Origin: an uncultured delta proteobacterium | GTDB lineage: Bacteria; Desulfobacterota; Binatia; UBA9968 | DNA: 64,000 nt | Assembly: GCA_963816145.1 (NCBI GenBank) | Contig: CAWFJP010000018.1 | Span: forward strand, 160,001-224,000 | Direction: 5' to 3' | Shown here: in pieces, positions 948 to 8,866 of the stretch | Layout of the letters: every line of letters starts with the position of its first letter | Numbering within the stretch: the stretch's first letter is position 1 | Position numbers and translations under genes: made by a program | Notes under the pieces: model-generated | Told to the model about the DNA's origin: nothing | Databases searched by the model: none | The model's input: only the letters and a program-made list of their open reading frames with translations

Positions 948-951
<4 letters not shown>
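40..951 (-). CDS. hemC: Hydroxymethylbilane synthase (porphobilinogen deaminase)
   Basis: RIGSRGSALALAQ, GKGVFTKEIE, AVHSMKDLP, IRGNVDTRLRKL and GGCHVPIG motifs; directly downstream of hemA. Confidence 0.97.
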
Positions 952-2231
<1,280 letters not shown>

Positions 2232-3089
2232 GGCTTATTCGAAACCGGCCTCCATGCCGGCTGGGGAAAACCGTATCGCCCCAGAGGAAATAACCAAGCA
2301 CGACGCAGAAACCGACCATGGTCAAGAGCGCCGCCTTCTTGCCGCGCAGCCCGGCGGTGATCCGGCCATGCAGAATCGCGCCGTAAAAGAGCCAGGCAAT
2401 ACCCGAAGAAATCTCGCGCGGTTCCCATGACCAATAATCACCCCAATGGATTCCCGCCCACAGGCTGCCGGTGAGAATGCCCAGAGTCATGAGCGGAAAG
2501 CCCCAGACCAAAAGCATCAGGTTGAGACGGTCGAGGGATTCCAACGGTGGCAAGCGCTTCAATAGCGCGGTCATTTTCTTATGCTTGAGATGTCGCTCTT
2601 GCAGCAGATAGATCAAACTGACGCCGAAGGCGAGAGCGAATACGGCGTTGCCGAGAAACGCCAAGGTGACATGCAGCGGCAACCAGAACGACTCCAGACC
2701 GGGAGGAATTTCCGCGCCCGATTTTCCGAAGGCCAACGCCGCCACGCACATGAGAAACGCTAACGGCGCGACAATGCCGCCCAACACCGTGAGCCGGTAT
2801 TTGAGCTGGATCAACAGATAAACCCCAACCATCAGCCAACTCTTGAATAACAGCGCTTCGCCCATCAGCGCCACCGCGGCAAAACCTTCGTTGGCATAGC
2901 GCACCAACAACGCCGCGGTATGAAAGACCAAACCGCTCGCCAGCGCCAGCGCCGGCAACTTGGACGCCGTGTCCTTGCGAAAGACGAAATAGAAATAGCT
3001 CACCGCGGTGAGCAGATAAATCACCGCGGTAATCTTAACGAAAGTGGCTTCCATAGGCAGGGGTCATTATAAGCTAACCCGGCGTGCCT

Positions 3090-3673: not shown

Positions 3674-5200
3674 TTGCCGCCTTACTTTTATCGATTCGCC
3701 ATCGTTTTCGTTGGTCTACTCATCACCACCGGCTGCCGTTCATCTCACCGCGACCTCCCGCCCAACTTTCTGGTCGTCGGCATCGAAGCCAATCCAGCGC
3801 AGCTCGACCCGCGCTACGCCACCGACGCCAACGCCGTGCGCATCGGCAATCTAATTTACAACTCGCTGCTACGCACCGATGAAAAGCTGCGCTTGCAACC
3901 CGAACTCGCCGAGCGCTGGCAGATAATCGACCGGCAGACGTTTCAATTCGATCTGCGAACAAACGTCAAATTCCACGACGGCCGGCCGCTGACGGCCGCG
4001 GACGTGAAATACACTTTCGAGTCGATTCTCGATCCGGTCAATCGCTCGCCCAAGCGTGCCCTGCTCAAGCAGTTGCAAACCGTCGAGATAACCGGCACCC
4101 ATCGGTTGCGCTTTCACTTGAATGCGCCCCACGCCCCCTTCGTCGAGCATTTCACGCTCGGCATTGTCCCCCAGGGCTCGCCGCCGGACACTCGCCCACC
4201 GCCCGGCTCCGGGCCGTTTGTGTTAGACAGATTCGAGTCCGGCGAAAAGGTTTTGCTCAGGGCCAACTCCGACTACTGGGAGCGCAAACCGGACCTCGCC
4301 GGCGTGATGTTTAAAATTGTCCCCGACGCCATGGTGCGGGCCCTAGAATTCAAGCAAGGCGCCATCGATTTCATGCAAAACGATCTCGAACCCGACATGT
4401 TGCCGTGGTTGAAAAGCCTCGCCAATGCCGAGGTCAGCGCAAATCAAGGCACGACGTTTCAATACCTCGGTATCAATCTCACCCACCCGATCTTAAAGCA
4501 GCTCAAAGTGCGCCAAGCGCTGGCCCATGCCATCGACCGCGAGCGCATCATTCATCATTTGCTCAAAGACGGGGCGATCGCCGCCAACGGCTTGATTTCG
4601 CCGCTTAATGAAACCTACGACGAAAACCTGCCGGCATGGCCCTACGATCCGGCGCGGGCCAAACAGTTGCTCGACGAAGCCGGCTTTCGCGATCCCGATG
4701 GTGACGGGCCAATGACGCGATTCCGGCTTTCTTACAAAACGACCAATATCGACCTGCGCCGGCGCATCGCCGAGGCGTTGAAGGAACAACTGCTGCAAGT
4801 CGGCATCGAGCTGGATATTCGCAGCTACGAATTTGGAACTTTTTTCAGCGATGTGAAAAAGGGCAACTTTCATCTCTACTCGCTTGCCTGGGTCGGCATC
4901 CGCGACCCGGATATTCAGCATCAAATATTTCATTCGTCCAGCGTGCCGCCCAACGGCGACAACCGCGGCCGCTACGCCAACTCACAAGTGGATCGCTTGC
5001 TCGATCAAGCCCGCGTTACCATGGAGCCAAGCCAACGCAAACAGCTCTACGGGGCGGCGCAGCGATTGATCGCCGAGGATCTCCCCTACGTGCCGCTGTG
5101 GTGGCAAAAAAATGTCGTCGCCAAGAAAACTAACATCCAAGGCTTTGTCCCCTATCCCGACGGCGATTTGATCTCTCTAAAGAAAGTGACCTTGCACTAA
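3674..5200 (+). CDS. Peptide/nickel ABC transporter substrate-binding lipoprotein (SBP family 5)
   Basis: Lipobox-like ITTGC; PELAERW, LRTNVKFHDGRPLTAADVKYTF, GSGPF and VRQALAHAIDR motifs. Confidence 0.93.
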   Translation: MPPYFYRFAIVFVGLLITTGCRSSHRDLPPNFLVVGIEANPAQLDPRYATDANAVRIGNLIYNSLLRTDEKLRLQPELAERWQIIDRQTFQFDLRTNVKFHDGRPLTAADVKYTFESILDPVNRSPKRALLKQLQTVEITGTHRLRFHLNAPHAPFVEHFTLGIVPQGSPPDTRPPPGSGPFVLDRFESGEKVLLRANSDYWERKPDLAGVMFKIVPDAMVRALEFKQGAIDFMQNDLEPDMLPWLKSLANAEVSANQGTTFQYLGINLTHPILKQLKVRQALAHAIDRERIIHHLLKDGAIAANGLISPLNETYDENLPAWPYDPARAKQLLDEAGFRDPDGDGPMTRFRLSYKTTNIDLRRRIAEALKEQLLQVGIELDIRSYEFGTFFSDVKKGNFHLYSLAWVGIRDPDIQHQIFHSSSVPPNGDNRGRYANSQVDRLLDQARVTMEPSQRKQLYGAAQRLIAEDLPYVPLWWQKNVVAKKTNIQGFVPYPDGDLISLKKVTLH

Positions 5201-5216
5201 TTCGACATTCAAACTT

Positions 5217-5239
5217 GTAGGGGCGACCGGCGGTCGCCC
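5217..5239. repeat. GTAG-type REP-like palindrome
   Basis: GTAG followed by the perfect stem GGGCGACC-GGC-GGTCGCCC; intergenic. Confidence 0.7.
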
Positions 5240-5263
5240 GTTTGCCTCGGTGCATTCAAATCG

Positions 5264-6187
5264 ATGAAACGCTACCTCATTCAGCGCCTGCTGCTGCTGC
5301 TCCCGACCCTCTTCGGCGCGCTGTCTTTGGTATTCCTACTGGTTCATTTGATTCCCGGCGATCCCGTCGAAGTGATGCTCGGCGAGACCGCCAGCGGCGC
5401 CGATAAACAGGAACTGCGCCGGGCTCTAGGTTTGGATCAACCGTTGGCGCTGCAATACCGATCCTTTCTCACCAAACTCGCCGTCGGCGACCTGGGCGAT
5501 TCGCTCTTCGAACAATCGAGCGTCAGTTCAATCATCGGCCAGCGGCTGCCGGCCACGCTCCAATTAGCAATGTGCGCGATGGTCGCGGCGCTGGTTATTT
5601 CATTCCCACTGGCGTTTCTGGCCGCACGCCGGCCAGGGAGCTTATCGGATCGTTTCGCGTTGCTGTTTTCACTGTTAGGTCTATCGTTGCCAAATTTTTG
5701 GCTTGGACCGCTCCTAATGATTCTATTTTCCATCCAGCTCGGTTGGATGCCGGTTTCCGGGCGCGGCGGCTTACTTCACGTCATCTTGCCGGCGCTCACT
5801 TTGGGCTTGGGCATGGCGGCGATCCTGACGCGCATCTTGCGCGCCAGTCTAATCCAGGTCGCTCGCGCTGAGTTTGTCCAAACTGCTCGCGCCAAAGGGC
5901 TGAGCGAAAAGCAGGTGTGGCTCAAGCATATGCTGCGCAACGCGCTGTTATCGGTGGTGACGATCATGAGCTTGCAATTCGGCGCCCTGCTCGCCGGCTC
6001 GTTGATAACTGAAACCGTTTTCAGCTGGCCCGGCATCGGCAGATTGACCGTCCAGGCGATCCAAACCCGCGACTATCCGTTGGTGCAAGGCTGCGTATTG
6101 GTCATCGCGGTCGCTTATGTGCTGGTAAATTTTTTCACCGACATCGCCTACAAACTAATCGACCCGCGGGTGAGCTATGGCGAGTAA
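5264..6187 (+). CDS. Peptide/nickel ABC transporter permease (DppB-like)
   Basis: PGDPV..MLG; EAA-loop TARAKGLSE; TETVFSWPGIG; TRDYPLVQG. Confidence 0.94.
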   Translation: MKRYLIQRLLLLLPTLFGALSLVFLLVHLIPGDPVEVMLGETASGADKQELRRALGLDQPLALQYRSFLTKLAVGDLGDSLFEQSSVSSIIGQRLPATLQLAMCAMVAALVISFPLAFLAARRPGSLSDRFALLFSLLGLSLPNFWLGPLLMILFSIQLGWMPVSGRGGLLHVILPALTLGLGMAAILTRILRASLIQVARAEFVQTARAKGLSEKQVWLKHMLRNALLSVVTIMSLQFGALLAGSLITETVFSWPGIGRLTVQAIQTRDYPLVQGCVLVIAVAYVLVNFFTDIAYKLIDPRVSYGE

Positions 6188-6977
6188 GGCATGGCTCTGC
6201 GCCGGCGCGTCAATTTTGCTTTTGCTGCTGGCCGCAGCGGTGGGCGCGCCGATCATCGCGCCGCACAATCCCTCACGGCAAGATTTGGCCAACGATCTGA
6301 TCGCCTATAGCGCCGATCATCTGCTCGGCACCGATAAACTCGGCCGCGACATCTTGAGCCGGACGCTTTATGGCGCGCGCATCTCACTTTCGGTCGGCTT
6401 TGCCACCGTCGCATTGTCACTCGCCATCGGCCTGATCGCCGGATCACTGGCCGGCTACTTCGGCGGCTGGATCGATCTCCTGCTGATGCGCCTGGTCGAC
6501 ATCCTATTGGCGTTTCCTGGCATTCTCTTGGCCATCGCCTTCACCGCCGTGCTCGGCCCAGGTCTCGATCATGTCATTCTTGCGCTTTGTCTGATCGGCT
6601 GGACCGGCTACGCCCGTCTGGTGCGCGGTGAAATCATCGCGTTGCGCGAACGAGAATTTATCCACGCCGCCCGCGCTCTCGGCGGCGCGCCAAGCCGCGT
6701 GATCCTGCGCCACCTCTTGCCGAATCTTTTGGCGCCGCTCTTGATCCAAGCGACCTTCGGCCTCGCCGCTGCGATCATCGCCGAAGGCAGCTTGAGTTTC
6801 CTCGGCCTGGGCGTCGAACCGCCAACGCCGTCCTGGGGATCGATGTTAAACGACGGCCGTCAGTTCCTGCTTGTCGCGCCGCATCTCACCACCTATCCAG
6901 GGCTGGCGATCATGGTCACAGTTTTTGCCCTCAATCTGGTGGGCGACGGGCTGCAGGAACGCCTCGGAAGGCAATAG
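6177..6977 (+). CDS. Peptide/nickel ABC transporter permease (DppC-like)
   Basis: HLLGTDKLGRDILSR, AARALGG, RHLLPN and LSFLGLG.EPPTPSWG motifs. Confidence 0.94.
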   Translation: MASKAWLCAGASILLLLLAAAVGAPIIAPHNPSRQDLANDLIAYSADHLLGTDKLGRDILSRTLYGARISLSVGFATVALSLAIGLIAGSLAGYFGGWIDLLLMRLVDILLAFPGILLAIAFTAVLGPGLDHVILALCLIGWTGYARLVRGEIIALREREFIHAARALGGAPSRVILRHLLPNLLAPLLIQATFGLAAAIIAEGSLSFLGLGVEPPTPSWGSMLNDGRQFLLVAPHLTTYPGLAIMVTVFALNLVGDGLQERLGRQ

Positions 6978-7097
6978 CTCAAACCGTTCAAATCGCTCAA
7001 TCGCTGCGCTCCGTTCAAACCGTTTTCGGACCGGAAGTTTTTTTCAATTTCTGACAATTTGAACGGCTTGAACGTTTTGAACGAATTGAACGAGCTC
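6977..7097. repeat. Imperfect inverted repeat made of tandem 9-mers
   Basis: Left arm has CGTTCAA/CGCTCAA units; right arm has four tandem TTGAACGnn units at 7059-7094. Confidence 0.75.
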
Positions 7098-7157
7098 AAC
7101 TAGATTGCCTAACCCGGCTCACGATGGTAATTAGCAAGGAATCAGGAGGTCACGTCC

Positions 7158-7718
7158 ATGAAACTTTACACCAGCTACACTTGACCCTACGCCCACAGGA
7201 CAAGGATTGTCCTGTCCGAAAAGAAAATCCCCTATGAAACGATCGAAGTCGATCTCAAGCATAAGCCCGAGGATCTCGTCAAGCAGAACCCCTACGGTAA
7301 AGTGCCGGTTTTGGTCGACGGCGACGGCGTCATCTACGAGTCGGCCGTGATCAACGAGTATCTCGACGAAAAGTTCACCAATGTGCCGCTCATGCCGCGC
7401 AGTCAACTCGACCGCGCCAAGGTGCGAATCTGGGTCGACTTCTTCAACACCCGAGTCCATCCGACCGGCAGCGATCTGCAGAAAGATCGCGATCCGGAAA
7501 AAGCCCGCGCGCGCATGGCCCAGCACCTGCGCACGATTGACGACGCCTTGGCCGGCAGAGACTATTTAGTCGGGGATCAAATTTCGCTAGCGGATGTAAC
7601 GTTCATCCCCTTTTACACTAGGCGAGAACGCTACAAAGTAACGTTTGACGACTATCCCAACATCGAGCGTTGGGCGGAGAATCTCATCGCGCGCCCGCAG
7701 GTCGCGCCGACTCTATAA
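7158..7718 (+). CDS. Glutathione S-transferase family selenoprotein (in-frame UGA at codon 9; 186 aa)
   Basis: AGGAGG RBS at 7144-7149 and ATG at 7158. Reads MKLYTSYT-UGA-PYAHRTRIVLSEKKIPYE...NPYGKVPVL..ESAVINEYLDE in one frame with the 7302-7718 ORF; the UGA sits at the Cys of the CPY/F motif; SECIS-like hairpin follows. Confidence 0.85.
7182..7215 (+). promoter_or_regulatory. Putative bacterial SECIS element
   Basis: UGA at 7182-7184, 10-nt spacer, then the perfect stem ACAGGACAA (7195-7203)/TTGTCCTGT (7207-7215) with a G-containing apical loop (GGA). Confidence 0.75.
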
Positions 7719-7725
7719 CAGAAGC

Positions 7726-7800
7726 GAGATAGAGATATGAGATAGAGACCGCCCAAGGCCTCCCCCTCTGTCTCTGTCACAACTCTCTATCTCTACTCTC
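7726..7800. repeat. Low-complexity inverted repeat (GAGATA units vs TATCTC/TGTCTC units)
   Basis: Purine-rich left arm complementary to a pyrimidine-rich right arm, between the GST and OCD genes. Confidence 0.6.
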
Positions 7801-7810
7801 AGGAGTTCCC

Positions 7811-8866
7811 ATGCACCCCATCCTCGTCAGTCCCCAAGAGATTCGCGGCATCGTCACCATGAACGAAGCGGTCGAAGCGGTCCGCCTCGGCTTTCGCGAG
7901 TGGGGCGAAAATCCACAGTTAAACGCGCCGCGCCGGCGCATTCACATCCCCACCGGTGTGCGCGTAAGCGTGCACCAGGGCGGCGTGCCGGCAGCCAAAG
8001 CCACCGGGCTCATGACCCACTGCGAATGGGTCAAACCGATGGCCAACGAGCAAGTCTATCCGCGCCTCAATCATCCGGTGATCGTTCTGTATGACTCTGC
8101 CGAGGGCGAGCTCAAAGGCATCATCGTCGGCGAGATCACCTGCTCGGAGTTGCCGGATAACATCGCCGTCACCGGCCTGCGCACCGCCGCCACCAGCGCC
8201 GTCGGCACCGACGTGCTGGCGCGCCCGGATGCGTCGAGTCTGGGCATCTTCGGCGCCGCCGGCCAGGCAAAAAATCATCTGCTCGCGCTCATGCAGGTGC
8301 GCAAACTGAAAACCGTCAAGGTCTACAGCCGCAATCCCGAAAACCGCAAACAGTTCTGCGACGAAATGGGACCAATCACCAATTTGAATATCATGCCTGT
8401 CGCGACTCCGGCCGAGGCGGTCCGCGGTGTCGATATCGTATTGACAGCCACCAACTCCAGCGTGCCGGTGTTCGACGGCAATCTGTTGGAACCGGGGCAG
8501 CATGTCACCACCATCGTCGGCAGCAACGTCGGCCTGGTCAAAGGCGGCTTCACCGCCGCCAAACGGCGCGAGATCGACGACGCAACACTATCGCGCAGTA
8601 ACGTCCACGGCATCGTCTCGATCCAGCAAGCGGTACAGGACGAGCAAGCGGATATCTACGATCCGGTCAACCGCGGCGTGATCAAATGGGAGCAGCTAAT
8701 TGAAATCGGTTCCATCCTCGCCGGCAACAGCGAAGGCCGCACCCGCATCGACCAGATCACCTTCTACAAAAACAACGCCGGCCAAGGCGTCGCCGATGTC
8801 GCGCTGGGAGCGAAGGTGCTGGAGAATATTAAAGCCAACCAAGCAGGACTGACGCTGAACTATTGA
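7811..8866 (+). CDS. Ornithine cyclodeaminase/mu-crystallin family protein
   Basis: TGLRTAATSAVG, GIFGAAGQA, DIVLTATNS and GQGVADVALG motifs. Confidence 0.9.
   Translation: MHPILVSPQEIRGIVTMNEAVEAVRLGFREWGENPQLNAPRRRIHIPTGVRVSVHQGGVPAAKATGLMTHCEWVKPMANEQVYPRLNHPVIVLYDSAEGELKGIIVGEITCSELPDNIAVTGLRTAATSAVGTDVLARPDASSLGIFGAAGQAKNHLLALMQVRKLKTVKVYSRNPENRKQFCDEMGPITNLNIMPVATPAEAVRGVDIVLTATNSSVPVFDGNLLEPGQHVTTIVGSNVGLVKGGFTAAKRREIDDATLSRSNVHGIVSIQQAVQDEQADIYDPVNRGVIKWEQLIEIGSILAGNSEGRTRIDQITFYKNNAGQGVADVALGAKVLENIKANQAGLTLNY

What the first reader, a model, noticed from the sequence alone, without database searches (positions are those of the whole stretch)
7144..7718. Hidden selenoprotein: a GST with Sec at the catalytic position and a perfect SECIS-like hairpin
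Seen: a strong RBS (AGGAGG) and ATG at 7158 open MKLYTSYT-TGA-PYAHRTRIVL..., which continues in frame into a complete GST. Ten nt after the TGA is a perfect 9-bp stem (ACAGGACAA/TTGTCCTGT) with a GGA loop. The stem-loop spans two AGG Arg codons, which suggests selection at the RNA level. Known: Cys-GSTs (omega/xi-like classes) use a CP(F/Y) active site; bacterial Sec insertion needs a hairpin with a G-containing loop shortly after the UGA; GST-like selenoproteins have been reported mainly from metagenomes. Inference: a U-P-Y-A deglutathionylase/reductase that gene callers truncate to 138 aa.
Basis: partly seen in the sequence, partly recalled or inferred. Interest (0 to 1): 0.82.

Follow-up and report, generated by a model that had tools for sequence, protein, structure and literature searches.

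The report
Selenocysteine-containing glutathione transferase, truncated by annotators
This gene encodes a glutathione-transferase-type enzyme whose catalytic residue is selenocysteine, read from a UGA "stop" codon with the help of a conserved RNA hairpin; it belongs to a kind of selenoprotein already listed in the literature, but here it is nearly fixed across a whole soil-bacterial order and is mis-annotated as a shortened protein almost everywhere.

Summary
Window 7158-7718 reads through one TGA (7182-7184) into a complete 186-aa GST (Pfam N and C domains; AlphaFold pLDDT 94.7; residue 9 caps helix alpha1). The genome has tRNA-Sec, selA, selB and a Sec-containing selD. In 166 distinct homologous coding sequences from genomes and metagenomes the aligned codon is TGA; one distinct sequence (2 loci) has TGT. 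Two database proteins have Cys there. The hairpin core after the UGA is nearly invariant at synonymous sites (Arg16 AGG 39/39, against 0-6 per column elsewhere). It is lost in the Cys form, which encodes the same peptide with other codons. Classical covariation is weak. TGA is otherwise an ordinary stop here. Cys forms nest inside Sec clades, so Sec looks ancestral. Function is inferred, not shown: a glutathione-dependent reductase or peroxidase working through a Se-S-glutathione intermediate. The gene is syntenic with a peptide-type ABC importer and an ornithine-cyclodeaminase-family gene. GST-like selenoproteins have been listed since 2005, so this is a new member of a known kind. New here: order-wide fixation, two paralogs per genome, systematic truncation in databases (118 of the best 120 hits).

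The parts
7144..7149 (+). Shine-Dalgarno sequence AGGAGG, 8 nt before the ATG
   Evidence: Read. A start codon at the aligned position occurs in 166 of 166 distinct Sec loci, and a GGAG/GAGG/AGGA/GGGA motif lies 4-18 nt upstream in 161 of 166.
7158..7718 (+). Full coding sequence of the Sec-containing GST (186 codons plus TAA), with UGA at codon 9 read as selenocysteine
   Evidence: Translation. Pfam GST_N_2 8.2e-24 and GST_C 5.1e-14. AlphaFold pLDDT 94.7. Foldseek TMq 0.88-0.94 to solved GSTs.
7182..7184 (+). In-frame TGA = Sec codon (residue 9), at the N-cap of helix alpha1
   Evidence: TGA at the aligned codon in 39/39 complete loci and in 158/160 further loci; the other 2 have TGT. Cys is at that position in P0002 and P0014. 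Helix 10-21 in the model.
7195..7215 (+). bSECIS-type hairpin. The window has 9 bp; the conserved core is 7197-7213, with a GGA apical loop at 7204-7206
   Evidence: Fold; per-locus folds; synonymous-site constraint; pair counts; loss in the Cys form. The loop lies 23-25 nt from the U of UGA, against 24-26 nt in this genome's selD.
7302..7718 (+). The 138-aa GTG ORF that standard gene calling reports: an artefact of reading TGA as stop, not a separate gene
   Evidence: ORF list. Database proteins of 136-168 aa.
3674..6977 (+). Conserved upstream neighbours: substrate-binding protein (3674-5200) and two permeases (5264-6187, 6177-6977) of an Opp/Dpp/Nik/Gsi-type ABC importer
   Evidence: Pfam and NCBIfam; no specific model is over its cut-off. 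permC lies upstream of the GST in 29 of 30 genome loci that are >=63% identical.
7811..8866 (+). Conserved downstream neighbour: ornithine cyclodeaminase / mu-crystallin family protein
   Evidence: Pfam PF02423 1.6e-37. Present downstream in 27 of 30 loci >=63% identical; the 3 misses end <350 nt after the GST.

Best explanation
Window 7158-7718 is one gene for a 186-residue selenoprotein of the GST superfamily. Translation starts at ATG 7158. At UGA 7182-7184 the hairpin 7195-7215 (conserved core 7197-7213, G-rich apical loop) recruits SelB with Sec-tRNA(Sec), so selenocysteine is inserted instead of terminating. Sec9 lies in a U-P-Y-A motif at the N-terminus of helix alpha1 of the thioredoxin-like domain. 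That is the place of the catalytic Cys in Cys-type GSTs (C-P-F/Y, as in the omega class and the Burkholderia 'SspA-like' GSTs). Inferred, not shown: the selenolate acts next to bound glutathione as the nucleophile of a glutathione-dependent redox reaction. It forms an enzyme-Se-S-glutathione intermediate that a second glutathione resolves. The reaction would be reduction of a mixed disulfide, of an oxidised small molecule, or of a hydroperoxide. Conserved synteny suggests the substrate may relate to what a neighbouring peptide-type ABC importer brings in. My odds: real Sec-decoded gene about 0.93. Given that, a glutathione-dependent redox enzyme via Se-S-G about 0.75. Within that, thiol-transferase/reductase versus peroxidase is roughly even.
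For: Sec machinery in the same genome:
- tRNA-Sec scores 74.2 bits against a cut-off of 47, and ARAGORN calls it SeC with anticodon tca.
- selA scores 616.5 bits, selB 417.4, and selD 380.1 with its own in-frame TGA, all adjacent on one contig.
- selA is found in 38 of 41 genomes of the order and 22 of 22 high-quality ones, including single-chromosome assemblies that also carry the TGA-GST.

Conservation of the UGA:
- The aligned codon is TGA in 39 of 39 complete loci from 3 families and 5 genera, at 49-94% protein identity.
- It is TGA in 158 of 160 further loci. In all there are 166 distinct Sec coding sequences against 1 distinct Cys one.
- A Sec/Cys pair exists: P0002 and P0014 have Cys at residue 9.

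Translation on both sides of the UGA:
- 166 of 166 loci have a start codon and 161 of 166 an SD motif, 8-9 codons upstream.
- Codons 20-48 keep their amino acids while varying synonymously.

RNA-level selection on the hairpin:
- Normalised codon entropy is 0.18 for the 6 hairpin codons against 0.73 for 75 other conserved codons (Mann-Whitney p = 3.5e-5).
- Arg14 is AGG in 35/39 and Arg16 in 39/39. The other Arg columns use AGG in 3/38, 6/39, 3/39, 2/39, 0/30 and 0/37.
- Val18 is GTC in 39/39, against 5/39, 1/38, 7/35 and 12/34 elsewhere.
- The Cys form encodes the same HRTRIVL with CAC AGA ACA CGA ATC GTC CTG and has no stable hairpin (-5.6 kcal/mol).
- The apical loop lies 23-25 nt from the UGA, against 24-26 nt in this genome's selD.

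Not a reassigned code: TGA closes 14 of 34 long frames in the window.

Fold and active site:
- pLDDT is 94.7, with strand 2-5 and helix 10-21. The fold is a full GST fold.
- K48-V49-P50 and E61-S62 are invariant in 45 diverse members. These are the G-site cis-Pro and Glu-Ser positions, a role I recall rather than tested.
- In the best PDB match the query's Sec position aligns with the Cys of TCPF.
- Glutathione can be made: gshB scores 399 bits and plant-type gshA 483 bits, both over their cut-offs.
- Chemically installing Sec at the catalytic Ser of a tau GST gave strong glutathione peroxidase activity (abstract of PMC10812501).
Against: - No experiment shows Se in the protein.
- Classical covariation is nearly absent. 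RNAalifold gives a covariation term of 0 with 4 invariant pairs. Only 2 cells show double-sided changes among 405, and 9 of 500 shuffles reach the observed values.
- The single-sequence fold is only z = -2.77.
- No Rfam family matches the hairpin.
- No NCBIfam model reaches its cut-off; the best is SspA at 99.6 against 314 bits.
- Reads: only assembled contigs were available. The independent DNA run's pieces stop at 7176. Only one short RNA-library contig, from a relative, spans the UGA.
- The sel genes lie on another contig of a MAG with 6.72% contamination. mitigates this.
- Substrate and reaction are pure inference. The ABC transporter's specificity is undetermined.
- Three of the 41 related genomes (G001, G004, G036; 65-93% complete) show only Ser-type GSTs without TGA.
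Confidence: 0.9

Rival explanations
1. The gene is a real Sec-GST, but its reaction is glutathione peroxidase-like. Sec is oxidised by a hydroperoxide to a selenenic acid and recycled by two glutathiones. It would then not be an omega-type thiol-transferase or deglutathionylase. This is a rival for the mechanism only, nested inside the best explanation.
For: Placing Sec at the catalytic position of a tau-class GST raised hydroperoxidase kcat 177-fold and created H2O2 reduction (abstract of PMC10812501). Tau GSTs are the top structural matches of the model (4chs, TMq 0.94). Sec is almost never replaced by Cys in this family: 166 distinct Sec sequences against 1 distinct Cys sequence. That fits chemistry in which Se matters most.
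Against: The U-P-Y-A motif and the best sequence matches resemble Cys-type GSTs with C-P-F. To my recollection their known activities are thiol-transferase or reductase. In 40 of 166 distinct members a Cys sits three residues upstream (CxxU), which suggests disulfide-type exchange. No peroxide-stress genes were seen next to it.
Confidence: 0.35
2. The UGA is read through or bypassed without selenocysteine, for example by near-cognate Trp or Cys insertion, or by termination and re-initiation. The hairpin would then serve another purpose, such as pausing, mRNA stability or attenuation.
For: No direct evidence of Se incorporation. Covariation is weak. No Rfam match.
Against: The UGA aligns with the catalytic Cys of homologs. 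Both the distance from the UGA to the loop and the G-containing loop match this genome's own selD element. selA co-occurs across the order. The hairpin decays exactly where UGA became UGU. TGA is otherwise a normal stop.
Confidence: 0.04
3. The gene is a pseudogene or an assembly or sequencing error: a Cys codon mutated or misread to TGA. The only product would be the 138-aa C-terminal fragment, or nothing.
For: Gene callers output the truncated ORF. Raw reads over 7182-7184 could not be inspected.
Against: The same TGA appears in 166 distinct coding sequences from independent assemblies, down to 49% identity. There is purifying selection before and after it. A fragment starting at 7302 would lack strand 1, helix 1 and the active site of the fold.
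Confidence: 0.01
4. The protein is a non-catalytic SspA-like regulator: a GST-fold protein that binds RNA polymerase rather than an enzyme.
For: The best NCBIfam and PDB sequence matches are named stringent starvation protein A.
Against: It scores 99.6 bits against the SspA cut-off of 314. The G-site residues are invariant. The closest 'SspA' structures (4qq7, 4hoj) were solved with bound glutathione. Maintaining a costly Sec codon implies catalysis.
Confidence: 0.03

Closest known systems
GST-like selenoprotein family of the marine metagenome surveys (Sargasso Sea 2005, PMC1088965; GOS 2008, PMC2398784; reviews PMC9312934 and PMC13188914)
   Same: A COG0625 / PF13409 GST-superfamily protein with an in-frame UGA, Cys homologs and a downstream bacterial SECIS-like hairpin. 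It is known only from bioinformatics and has no assigned function.
   Different: In the passages I saw, the literature gives only table rows: 4 and 12 marine sequences, with no motif listed. The clade here is from soil, wetland and groundwater, with record titles mostly reading Candidatus Binatia or Deltaproteobacteria. Sec is nearly fixed, there are often two paralogs per genome, and synteny is conserved. I could not compare it with the published representatives (PPR62222.1, MEK9676863.1) because no tool could fetch them, so identity of subfamily is untested.
Omega-class GSTs (human GSTO1/GSTO2; PDB 1eem, 3q18)
   Same: GST fold (TMq 0.89-0.91) and sequence E-value 4.5e-24. A nucleophile sits in an X-P-F/Y motif at the start of helix alpha1. 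A mixed-disulfide type mechanism is expected (recalled knowledge).
   Different: Sec instead of Cys. Only 27-30% identity. It lacks the roughly 20-residue N-terminal extension: query 2-183 aligns to chain 25-213. It is 186 aa long, against about 240.
Bacterial 'SspA-like' Cys-type GSTs solved with glutathione (Burkholderia 4qq7 / 6v91; Neisseria RegF 4hoj)
   Same: They are the best sequence matches (E 7.6e-34 to 9.7e-30). A Cys in TCPF aligns with the Sec position, and length and fold are similar.
   Different: About 32-35% identity. They have Cys, not Sec. The window protein is far below the SspA equivalog cut-off (99.6 against 314 bits).
Engineered or semi-synthetic seleno-GSTs (e.g. SeSh14, PMC10812501)
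   Same: Sec is at the catalytic position of a glutathione-binding GST scaffold.
   Different: Those are man-made (a Ser-to-Sec chemical conversion in a tau GST). This one is natural and genetically encoded through UGA and a SECIS.

Membership tests
Bacterial selenoprotein gene (UGA decoded as Sec) | In-frame UGA that aligns with Cys in homologs (a Sec/Cys pair) | tested here: met
   P0002 and P0014 have Cys at residue 9. 2 of 160 loci have TGT and 158 have TGA.
Bacterial selenoprotein gene (UGA decoded as Sec) | Stem-loop immediately downstream of the UGA, with a small apical loop containing G. This is the criterion as worded in PMC1088965; the numeric limits of the bSECIS model are recalled only. 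| tested here: met
   Hairpin at 7195-7215 with loop GGA. It is conserved in all Sec loci folded and lost in the Cys form. The loop distance matches selD's. The covariation test itself is weak. bSECISearch was not available.
Bacterial selenoprotein gene (UGA decoded as Sec) | Genome encodes tRNA-Sec, SelA, SelB and SelD | tested here: met
   all are over their curated cut-offs. selA is in 38 of 41 relatives.
Bacterial selenoprotein gene (UGA decoded as Sec) | Selenium demonstrably incorporated at the UGA | not testable with these tools
   Needs 75Se labelling or mass spectrometry.
GST superfamily | Thioredoxin-like N-domain plus all-helical C-domain | tested here: met
   Pfam GST_N_2 (84.4 bits against 25) and GST_C (52.7 against 20.7). 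AlphaFold model. Foldseek TMq up to 0.94.
GST superfamily | Glutathione-binding (G-site) residues: the cis-Pro loop and the Glu-Ser pair (roles recalled from GST structural literature) | tested here: met
   K48-V49-P50 and E61-S62 are invariant in 45 diverse members. Actual glutathione binding was not tested.
Omega-class GST | Catalytic Cys in a C-P-F/Y motif | tested here: inconclusive
   The motif is U-P-Y-A (Y in 162 and F in 4 of 166 distinct sequences). The position is equivalent, but Sec replaces Cys.
Omega-class GST | Class-specific N-terminal extension and class-level sequence identity (recalled criteria) | tested here: not met
   The protein starts 8 residues before the nucleophile. 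Query 2-183 aligns to GSTO1 residues 25-213, at 27-30% identity.
Stringent starvation protein A (NF007016) | Score over the equivalog cut-off | tested here: not met
   99.6 bits against a cut-off of 314.
Published 'GST-like selenoprotein' family | Same subfamily and Sec position as the published representatives (PPR62222.1, MEK9676863.1) | not testable with these tools
   The accessions appear in review tables, but no tool could fetch them. Supplements are closed.

The most novel reading that the evidence does not exclude
This family would be a natural, genetically encoded seleno-GST that works as a glutathione-dependent selenoperoxidase or reductase: an independent evolutionary route to GPx-like chemistry on a GST scaffold. 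It is fixed across a whole order of soil bacteria (Binatia-type MAGs), duplicated into two paralogs, and functionally tied to a peptide-type ABC importer and an imine-reductase-family enzyme. A subset would have evolved a CxxU selenenylsulfide switch.
Probability: 0.25. Interest if true: 0.6.

Novelty: new member of a known kind. Interest (0 to 1): 0.42.

Why it matters
- Annotation. Of the best 120 database relatives, 118 are N-terminally truncated products lacking the active site, and NCBIfam has no model that would rescue them. A family model with the Sec position flagged would correct hundreds of records.
- Biology. Selenoprotein families usually have many more Cys than Sec members (GOS reported 12 Sec against 1,036 Cys GSTs). 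Here the ratio is inverted, at 166 distinct Sec to 1 distinct Cys coding sequence, and Sec looks ancestral. That makes this a good natural system for asking what selenium buys on a GST scaffold.
- Ecology. It points to selenium dependence in an abundant, uncultured soil and wetland lineage. I found no paper linking that lineage to selenocysteine.
- Enzymology. It is a natural counterpart to engineered seleno-GST peroxidases.

Tried and rejected
- Reassigned genetic code: rejected. TGA closes 14 of 34 long frames in the window.
- Pseudogene or sequencing error: rejected by conservation.
- Covariation as proof of the hairpin: tried and found weak. I rely instead on synonymous-site constraint and on the loss of the hairpin in the Cys form.
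- Rfam scan of 7100-7300: nothing meaningful. The best match was Chloroflexus-1 at 14.1 bits against 181.5.
- Reads. All runs served were assembled contigs, so allele frequencies at 7182-7184 could not be read. The independent DNA run X2 yielded pieces ending at 7176 and gave almost no depth over the TGA. RNA-library contigs of three studies cover 7300-7574. One 151-nt RNA-library contig covers 7180-7219, with a 5' part that reads a relative's start codon. This is presence in RNA libraries, not proof of transcription.
- Assigning the ABC transporter a substrate: failed. Opp, Nik, Gsi and Dpp models all hit below their cut-offs, so a glutathione-import link is speculation only.
- The second paralog's neighbourhood (cupin, NMT1-like binding protein, LVIVD repeat protein) gave no functional hint.
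- Phylum-wide search. Only 1 of 300 other genomes, of the same family, had a close match at E <= 1e-45. That threshold excludes distant GSTs by design.
- Not used: complex prediction, the search of protein representatives, the protein-atlas search and the viral collections.
- Supplementary files were not requested because they are closed. Supplementary tables of the cited surveys and reviews may list GST-type selenoproteins, their taxa or their Sec positions, which could lower the novelty further.
- Literature limits. I saw only table passages of PMC1088965, PMC2398784, PMC9312934, PMC13188914 and PMC1976440, plus method passages of PMC1088965 and the abstract of PMC10812501. 'Not in print' rests on searches (Binatia + selenocysteine, 0 papers; Binatota + selenoprotein, 0 papers).
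- Unpublished genome. Counts include G005 (locus L033), which may not be published without its depositors' permission. Dropping it changes 41 to 40 genomes and 39 to 38 loci, and changes no conclusion.
Full report
OBSERVATION. The sequence is as described. AGGAGG lies at 7144-7149, ATG at 7158, and an in-frame TGA at 7182-7184 (codon 9). The frame then stays open to TAA at 7716-7718. With TGA read as U the product is 186 residues, beginning MKLYTSYT-U-PYAHRTRIVL. Table 11 yields only a 138-aa GTG ORF at 7302-7718. Ten nucleotides after the TGA, ACAGGACAA (7195-7203) pairs perfectly with TTGTCCTGT (7207-7215) around a GGA loop. As RNA this folds at -11.9 kcal/mol, against -6.55 +/- 1.93 for dinucleotide shuffles (z = -2.77; 3 of 200 shuffles fold as well). 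On its own, then, the hairpin is only moderately unusual.

WHAT THE PROTEIN IS. The read-through product matches both GST domains over Pfam's cut-offs: GST_N_2 at 8.2e-24, GST_N_3 at 9.1e-23 and GST_C at 5.1e-14. An AlphaFold model built on 45 diverse family members is confident (mean pLDDT 94.7, pTM 0.89). It has strand 2-5 and helix 10-21, so residue 9 caps helix alpha1, the nucleophile position of thioredoxin-fold enzymes. Foldseek finds complete GST folds: tau GST 4chs at TMq 0.94, the glutathione-bound bacterial 'SspA-like' GSTs 4hoj and 4qq7, and human GSTO1/O2 at TMq about 0.9. By sequence, the best solved relatives are Burkholderia 'SspA' entries (E 7.6e-34), in which a Cys of TCPF aligns with the TGA position; GSTO1 follows at 4.5e-24. 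No NCBIfam model reaches its cut-off (SspA 99.6 against 314 bits), so curated annotation has nothing that would name or repair this gene. K48-V49-P50 and E61-S62 are invariant across the 45-member alignment. I recall these as the glutathione-site cis-Pro loop and Glu-Ser pair. Two non-TGA GST paralogs in the same genome carry Ser at the aligned position and belong to a different subfamily.

SEC MACHINERY. The window's own assembly (7.8 Mb, 31 contigs) holds the following:
- a tRNA-Sec (74.2 bits against a cut-off of 47; ARAGORN: SeC, anticodon tca);
- selA (616.5 bits), selB (417.4 bits) and selD (380.1 bits) side by side on one contig, with selD itself carrying one in-frame TGA.

That contig is not the window's, and the assembly has 6.72% contamination. 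I therefore checked relatives. selA is over its cut-off in 38 of 41 genomes of the order and in 22 of 22 high-quality ones. These include single-chromosome assemblies that also carry the TGA-GST. TGA is not reassigned: it closes 14 of 34 stop-to-stop frames of at least 300 codons in the window.

CONSERVATION OF THE UGA. A six-frame search of 41 genomes of the order (3 families, 5 genera) found a match in all. By my reading of the rows, 38 have at least one copy with exactly one in-frame TGA. G001, G004 and G036 (65-93% complete) showed only Ser-type matches of about 40% identity. In 39 of 39 complete loci the TGA sits at the same aligned codon and is followed by P-(Y/F)-A-H-R-T-R, at 49-94% protein identity. 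One further locus is cut by a contig end. The own genome holds a second Sec paralog (53% identity). The species-level genome collection and the metagenome collection gave 80 loci each. Of these 160, 158 have TGA and 2 have TGT. After removing duplicates there are 166 distinct Sec coding sequences and 1 distinct Cys one. Two database proteins of full length (P0002, P0014) have Cys at residue 9. The other 118 of the best 120 database hits are 136-168 aa, that is, truncated by gene callers. In a phylum-wide draw, only 1 of 300 other genomes, of the same family, had a close match, and it also carries TGA.

TRANSLATION ON BOTH SIDES OF THE UGA. A start codon stands at the aligned position (or one codon upstream) in 166 of 166 distinct Sec loci. 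A Shine-Dalgarno-like motif lies 4-18 nt before it in 161 of 166. Between the UGA and the 'annotated' start, amino acids are conserved while codons vary synonymously. For example E21 is GAA 25 / GAG 14 and K36 is AAG 19 / AAA 20.

THE HAIRPIN. Per-locus folds show the same stem-loop everywhere. The core GGAC(A/T)AGG(A/C)T(T/A)GTCC is essentially invariant among the 166 distinct Sec sequences. The decisive evidence comes from synonymous sites within one alignment of 39 sequences:
- Normalised codon entropy is 0.18 for the six hairpin codons (13-16, 18, 19), against 0.73 for 75 other conserved degenerate codons (Mann-Whitney p = 3.5e-5).
- Arg14 is AGG in 35/39 and Arg16 in 39/39. The six other conserved Arg columns use AGG in 3/38, 6/39, 3/39, 2/39, 0/30 and 0/37.
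- Val18 is GTC in 39/39, against 5/39, 1/38, 7/35 and 12/34 elsewhere.
- Thr15 is ACA in 33/39, against 0/32, 2/35, 0/32 and 3/34 elsewhere.

The natural control is the Cys form. It encodes the identical HRTRIVL with CAC AGA ACA CGA ATC GTC CTG, and the stem is gone (-5.6 kcal/mol).

Against this, classical covariation is weak. RNAalifold keeps four invariant pairs with a covariation term of 0. Counting the window's nine pairs over 45 diverse sequences gives 85.4% paired, five pairs that never vary and only two double-sided changes. The outermost A-U pair is present in 8/45, so the conserved element is a 7-bp stem and not the 'perfect 9 bp'. No Rfam family matches.

The geometry agrees with the genome's own selD. 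There a 5-bp hairpin places its apical loop 24-26 nt from the U of UGA, against 23-25 nt here, and both loops contain G. [quoted passage not shown] The numeric limits of the bSECIS model I only recall.

EVOLUTION. The tree has 50 rows: the 45 alignment members, three Cys forms, and two Ser-type paralogs from the same genome as outgroup. On it the Cys forms sit inside Sec clades at two separate supported places. L081 and P0014 are sister to L175 (support 98/87). P0002 lies inside a 17-row clade (100/98) that also holds the window's protein. Sec therefore looks ancestral in the sampled family, and Cys is a rare secondary replacement. The root is set by the outgroup only, and no formal clade test was run.

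CONTEXT.
- The gene follows a substrate-binding protein and two permeases of an Opp/Dpp/Nik/Gsi-type ABC importer, and precedes an ornithine-cyclodeaminase/mu-crystallin-family gene.
- Among the 30 genome loci that are >=63% identical, permC is upstream in 29; the miss has only 335 nt of flank. The OCD gene is downstream in 27; the three misses end <350 nt after the GST.
- Among the 50 loci below 63% identity, the permease pair is kept in 6 and the OCD gene in none.
- The Cys form shares the synteny.
- The transporter's substrate cannot be named.
- The genome can make glutathione: gshB scores 399 bits and plant-type gshA 483 bits, both over their cut-offs.

MECHANISM.
- Shown: a GST-fold gene with a conserved UGA at the catalytic position, a conserved downstream hairpin under RNA-level selection, and the Sec machinery.
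- Inferred: SelB-dependent Sec insertion, and a selenolate that acts beside bound glutathione and cycles through an enzyme-Se-S-glutathione intermediate.

Whether the substrate is a mixed disulfide or oxidised small molecule (omega-like) or a hydroperoxide (GPx-like) is open. Chemical Ser-to-Sec conversion of a tau GST gave 177-fold higher hydroperoxidase kcat and new H2O2 activity (abstract of PMC10812501). That makes the peroxidase reading credible. In 40 of 166 distinct members a Cys lies three residues upstream (C-H-T-U, a CxxU arrangement). The window's copy has Ser there.

COMPARISON AND NOVELTY. 'Glutathione S-transferase' is listed among new selenoprotein families of the Sargasso Sea (4 sequences) and of GOS (12 Sec sequences against 1,036 Cys homologs). 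It appears as 'GST-like' in the 2022 and 2026 reviews, with no motif given and functions called largely uncharacterised. So the kind is known. Three things I did not find in print, within the passages I saw and searches (0 papers each): the order-wide, almost exclusive use of Sec in this terrestrial lineage; the paralog pair; and the conserved synteny. I could not test whether the published representatives belong to this subfamily. It is not an omega-class member: it has no N-terminal extension and only 27-30% identity. It is not SspA either, being far below that cut-off.

READS. Runs holding the stretch come from soil and wetland metagenomes. Only contigs could be laid. They show the gene body in three RNA libraries, and a relative's start-UGA-hairpin stretch in one. 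They give no allele counts at the TGA.

VERDICT. This is a genuine, mis-annotated Sec-containing GST and a new member of a known kind.

Noticed in passing
G000:C3:481818-482375 (locus L059; context L224): A second Sec-containing paralog of the same GST in the same genome: 53% identity, TGA at the same codon, same hairpin core. Many relatives also carry two copies. Its neighbours (cupin, NMT1-like binding protein, LVIVD-repeat protein) differ from those in the window.
   Followed up: partly
G000:C30:562492-566803 and C30:576761-576851 (loci L009, L010, L018, L001): selA, selB and selD are adjacent, with tRNA-Sec about 10 kb downstream. selD is itself a selenoprotein (…KAAG-U-AAKLGPGD) with its own hairpin after the UGA.
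   Followed up: partly
window 6979-7092: The intergenic region upstream of the gene holds TTGAACG-type units repeated every 9 nt (7058-7092), facing an imperfect inverted copy (6979-7024). Pieces of it match 46 places in the own genome, counting itself. Many unrelated metagenome contigs end in it. It looks like a dispersed REP/MITE-like intergenic repeat.
   Followed up: partly
window 7726-7800: Between the GST stop and the next gene, GAGATAGAGA occurs twice (7726-7735, 7739-7748) and faces an inverted copy (7770-7793; 24-nt arms, 83% complementary). It may be a terminator-like or regulatory palindrome.
   Followed up: no
family alignment A2; residue -3 relative to Sec (window residue 6): 40 of 166 distinct Sec sequences have Cys three residues before Sec (C-H-T-U-P-Y, a CxxU motif). 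The rest have S (57), Y (51), A (13), T (4) or F (1). The window has Ser. A subset may form an internal selenenylsulfide.
   Followed up: partly
window 3674-6977: The ABC importer cluster next to the GST shows a binding protein and two permeases. No ATPase gene lies between them and the GST or directly after it. I did not look for the ATPases elsewhere.
   Followed up: no
loci L061-L140 (record titles): Record titles of family members carry many different phylum labels: Candidatus Binatia, Deltaproteobacteria, Thermodesulfobacteriota, Chloroflexota, Alphaproteobacteria, Acidiferrales, Udaeobacter and Eisenbacteria. Yet the proteins form one tight tree and many share synteny. The cause could be inconsistent labelling or binning, or horizontal transfer.
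   Followed up: no
window 948-3054 (minus strand): Glutamyl-tRNA reductase (hemA, 461 bits) and a CcsB-type cytochrome c biogenesis protein lie upstream, on the opposite strand. These are ordinary genes, recorded for annotation only.
   Followed up: no
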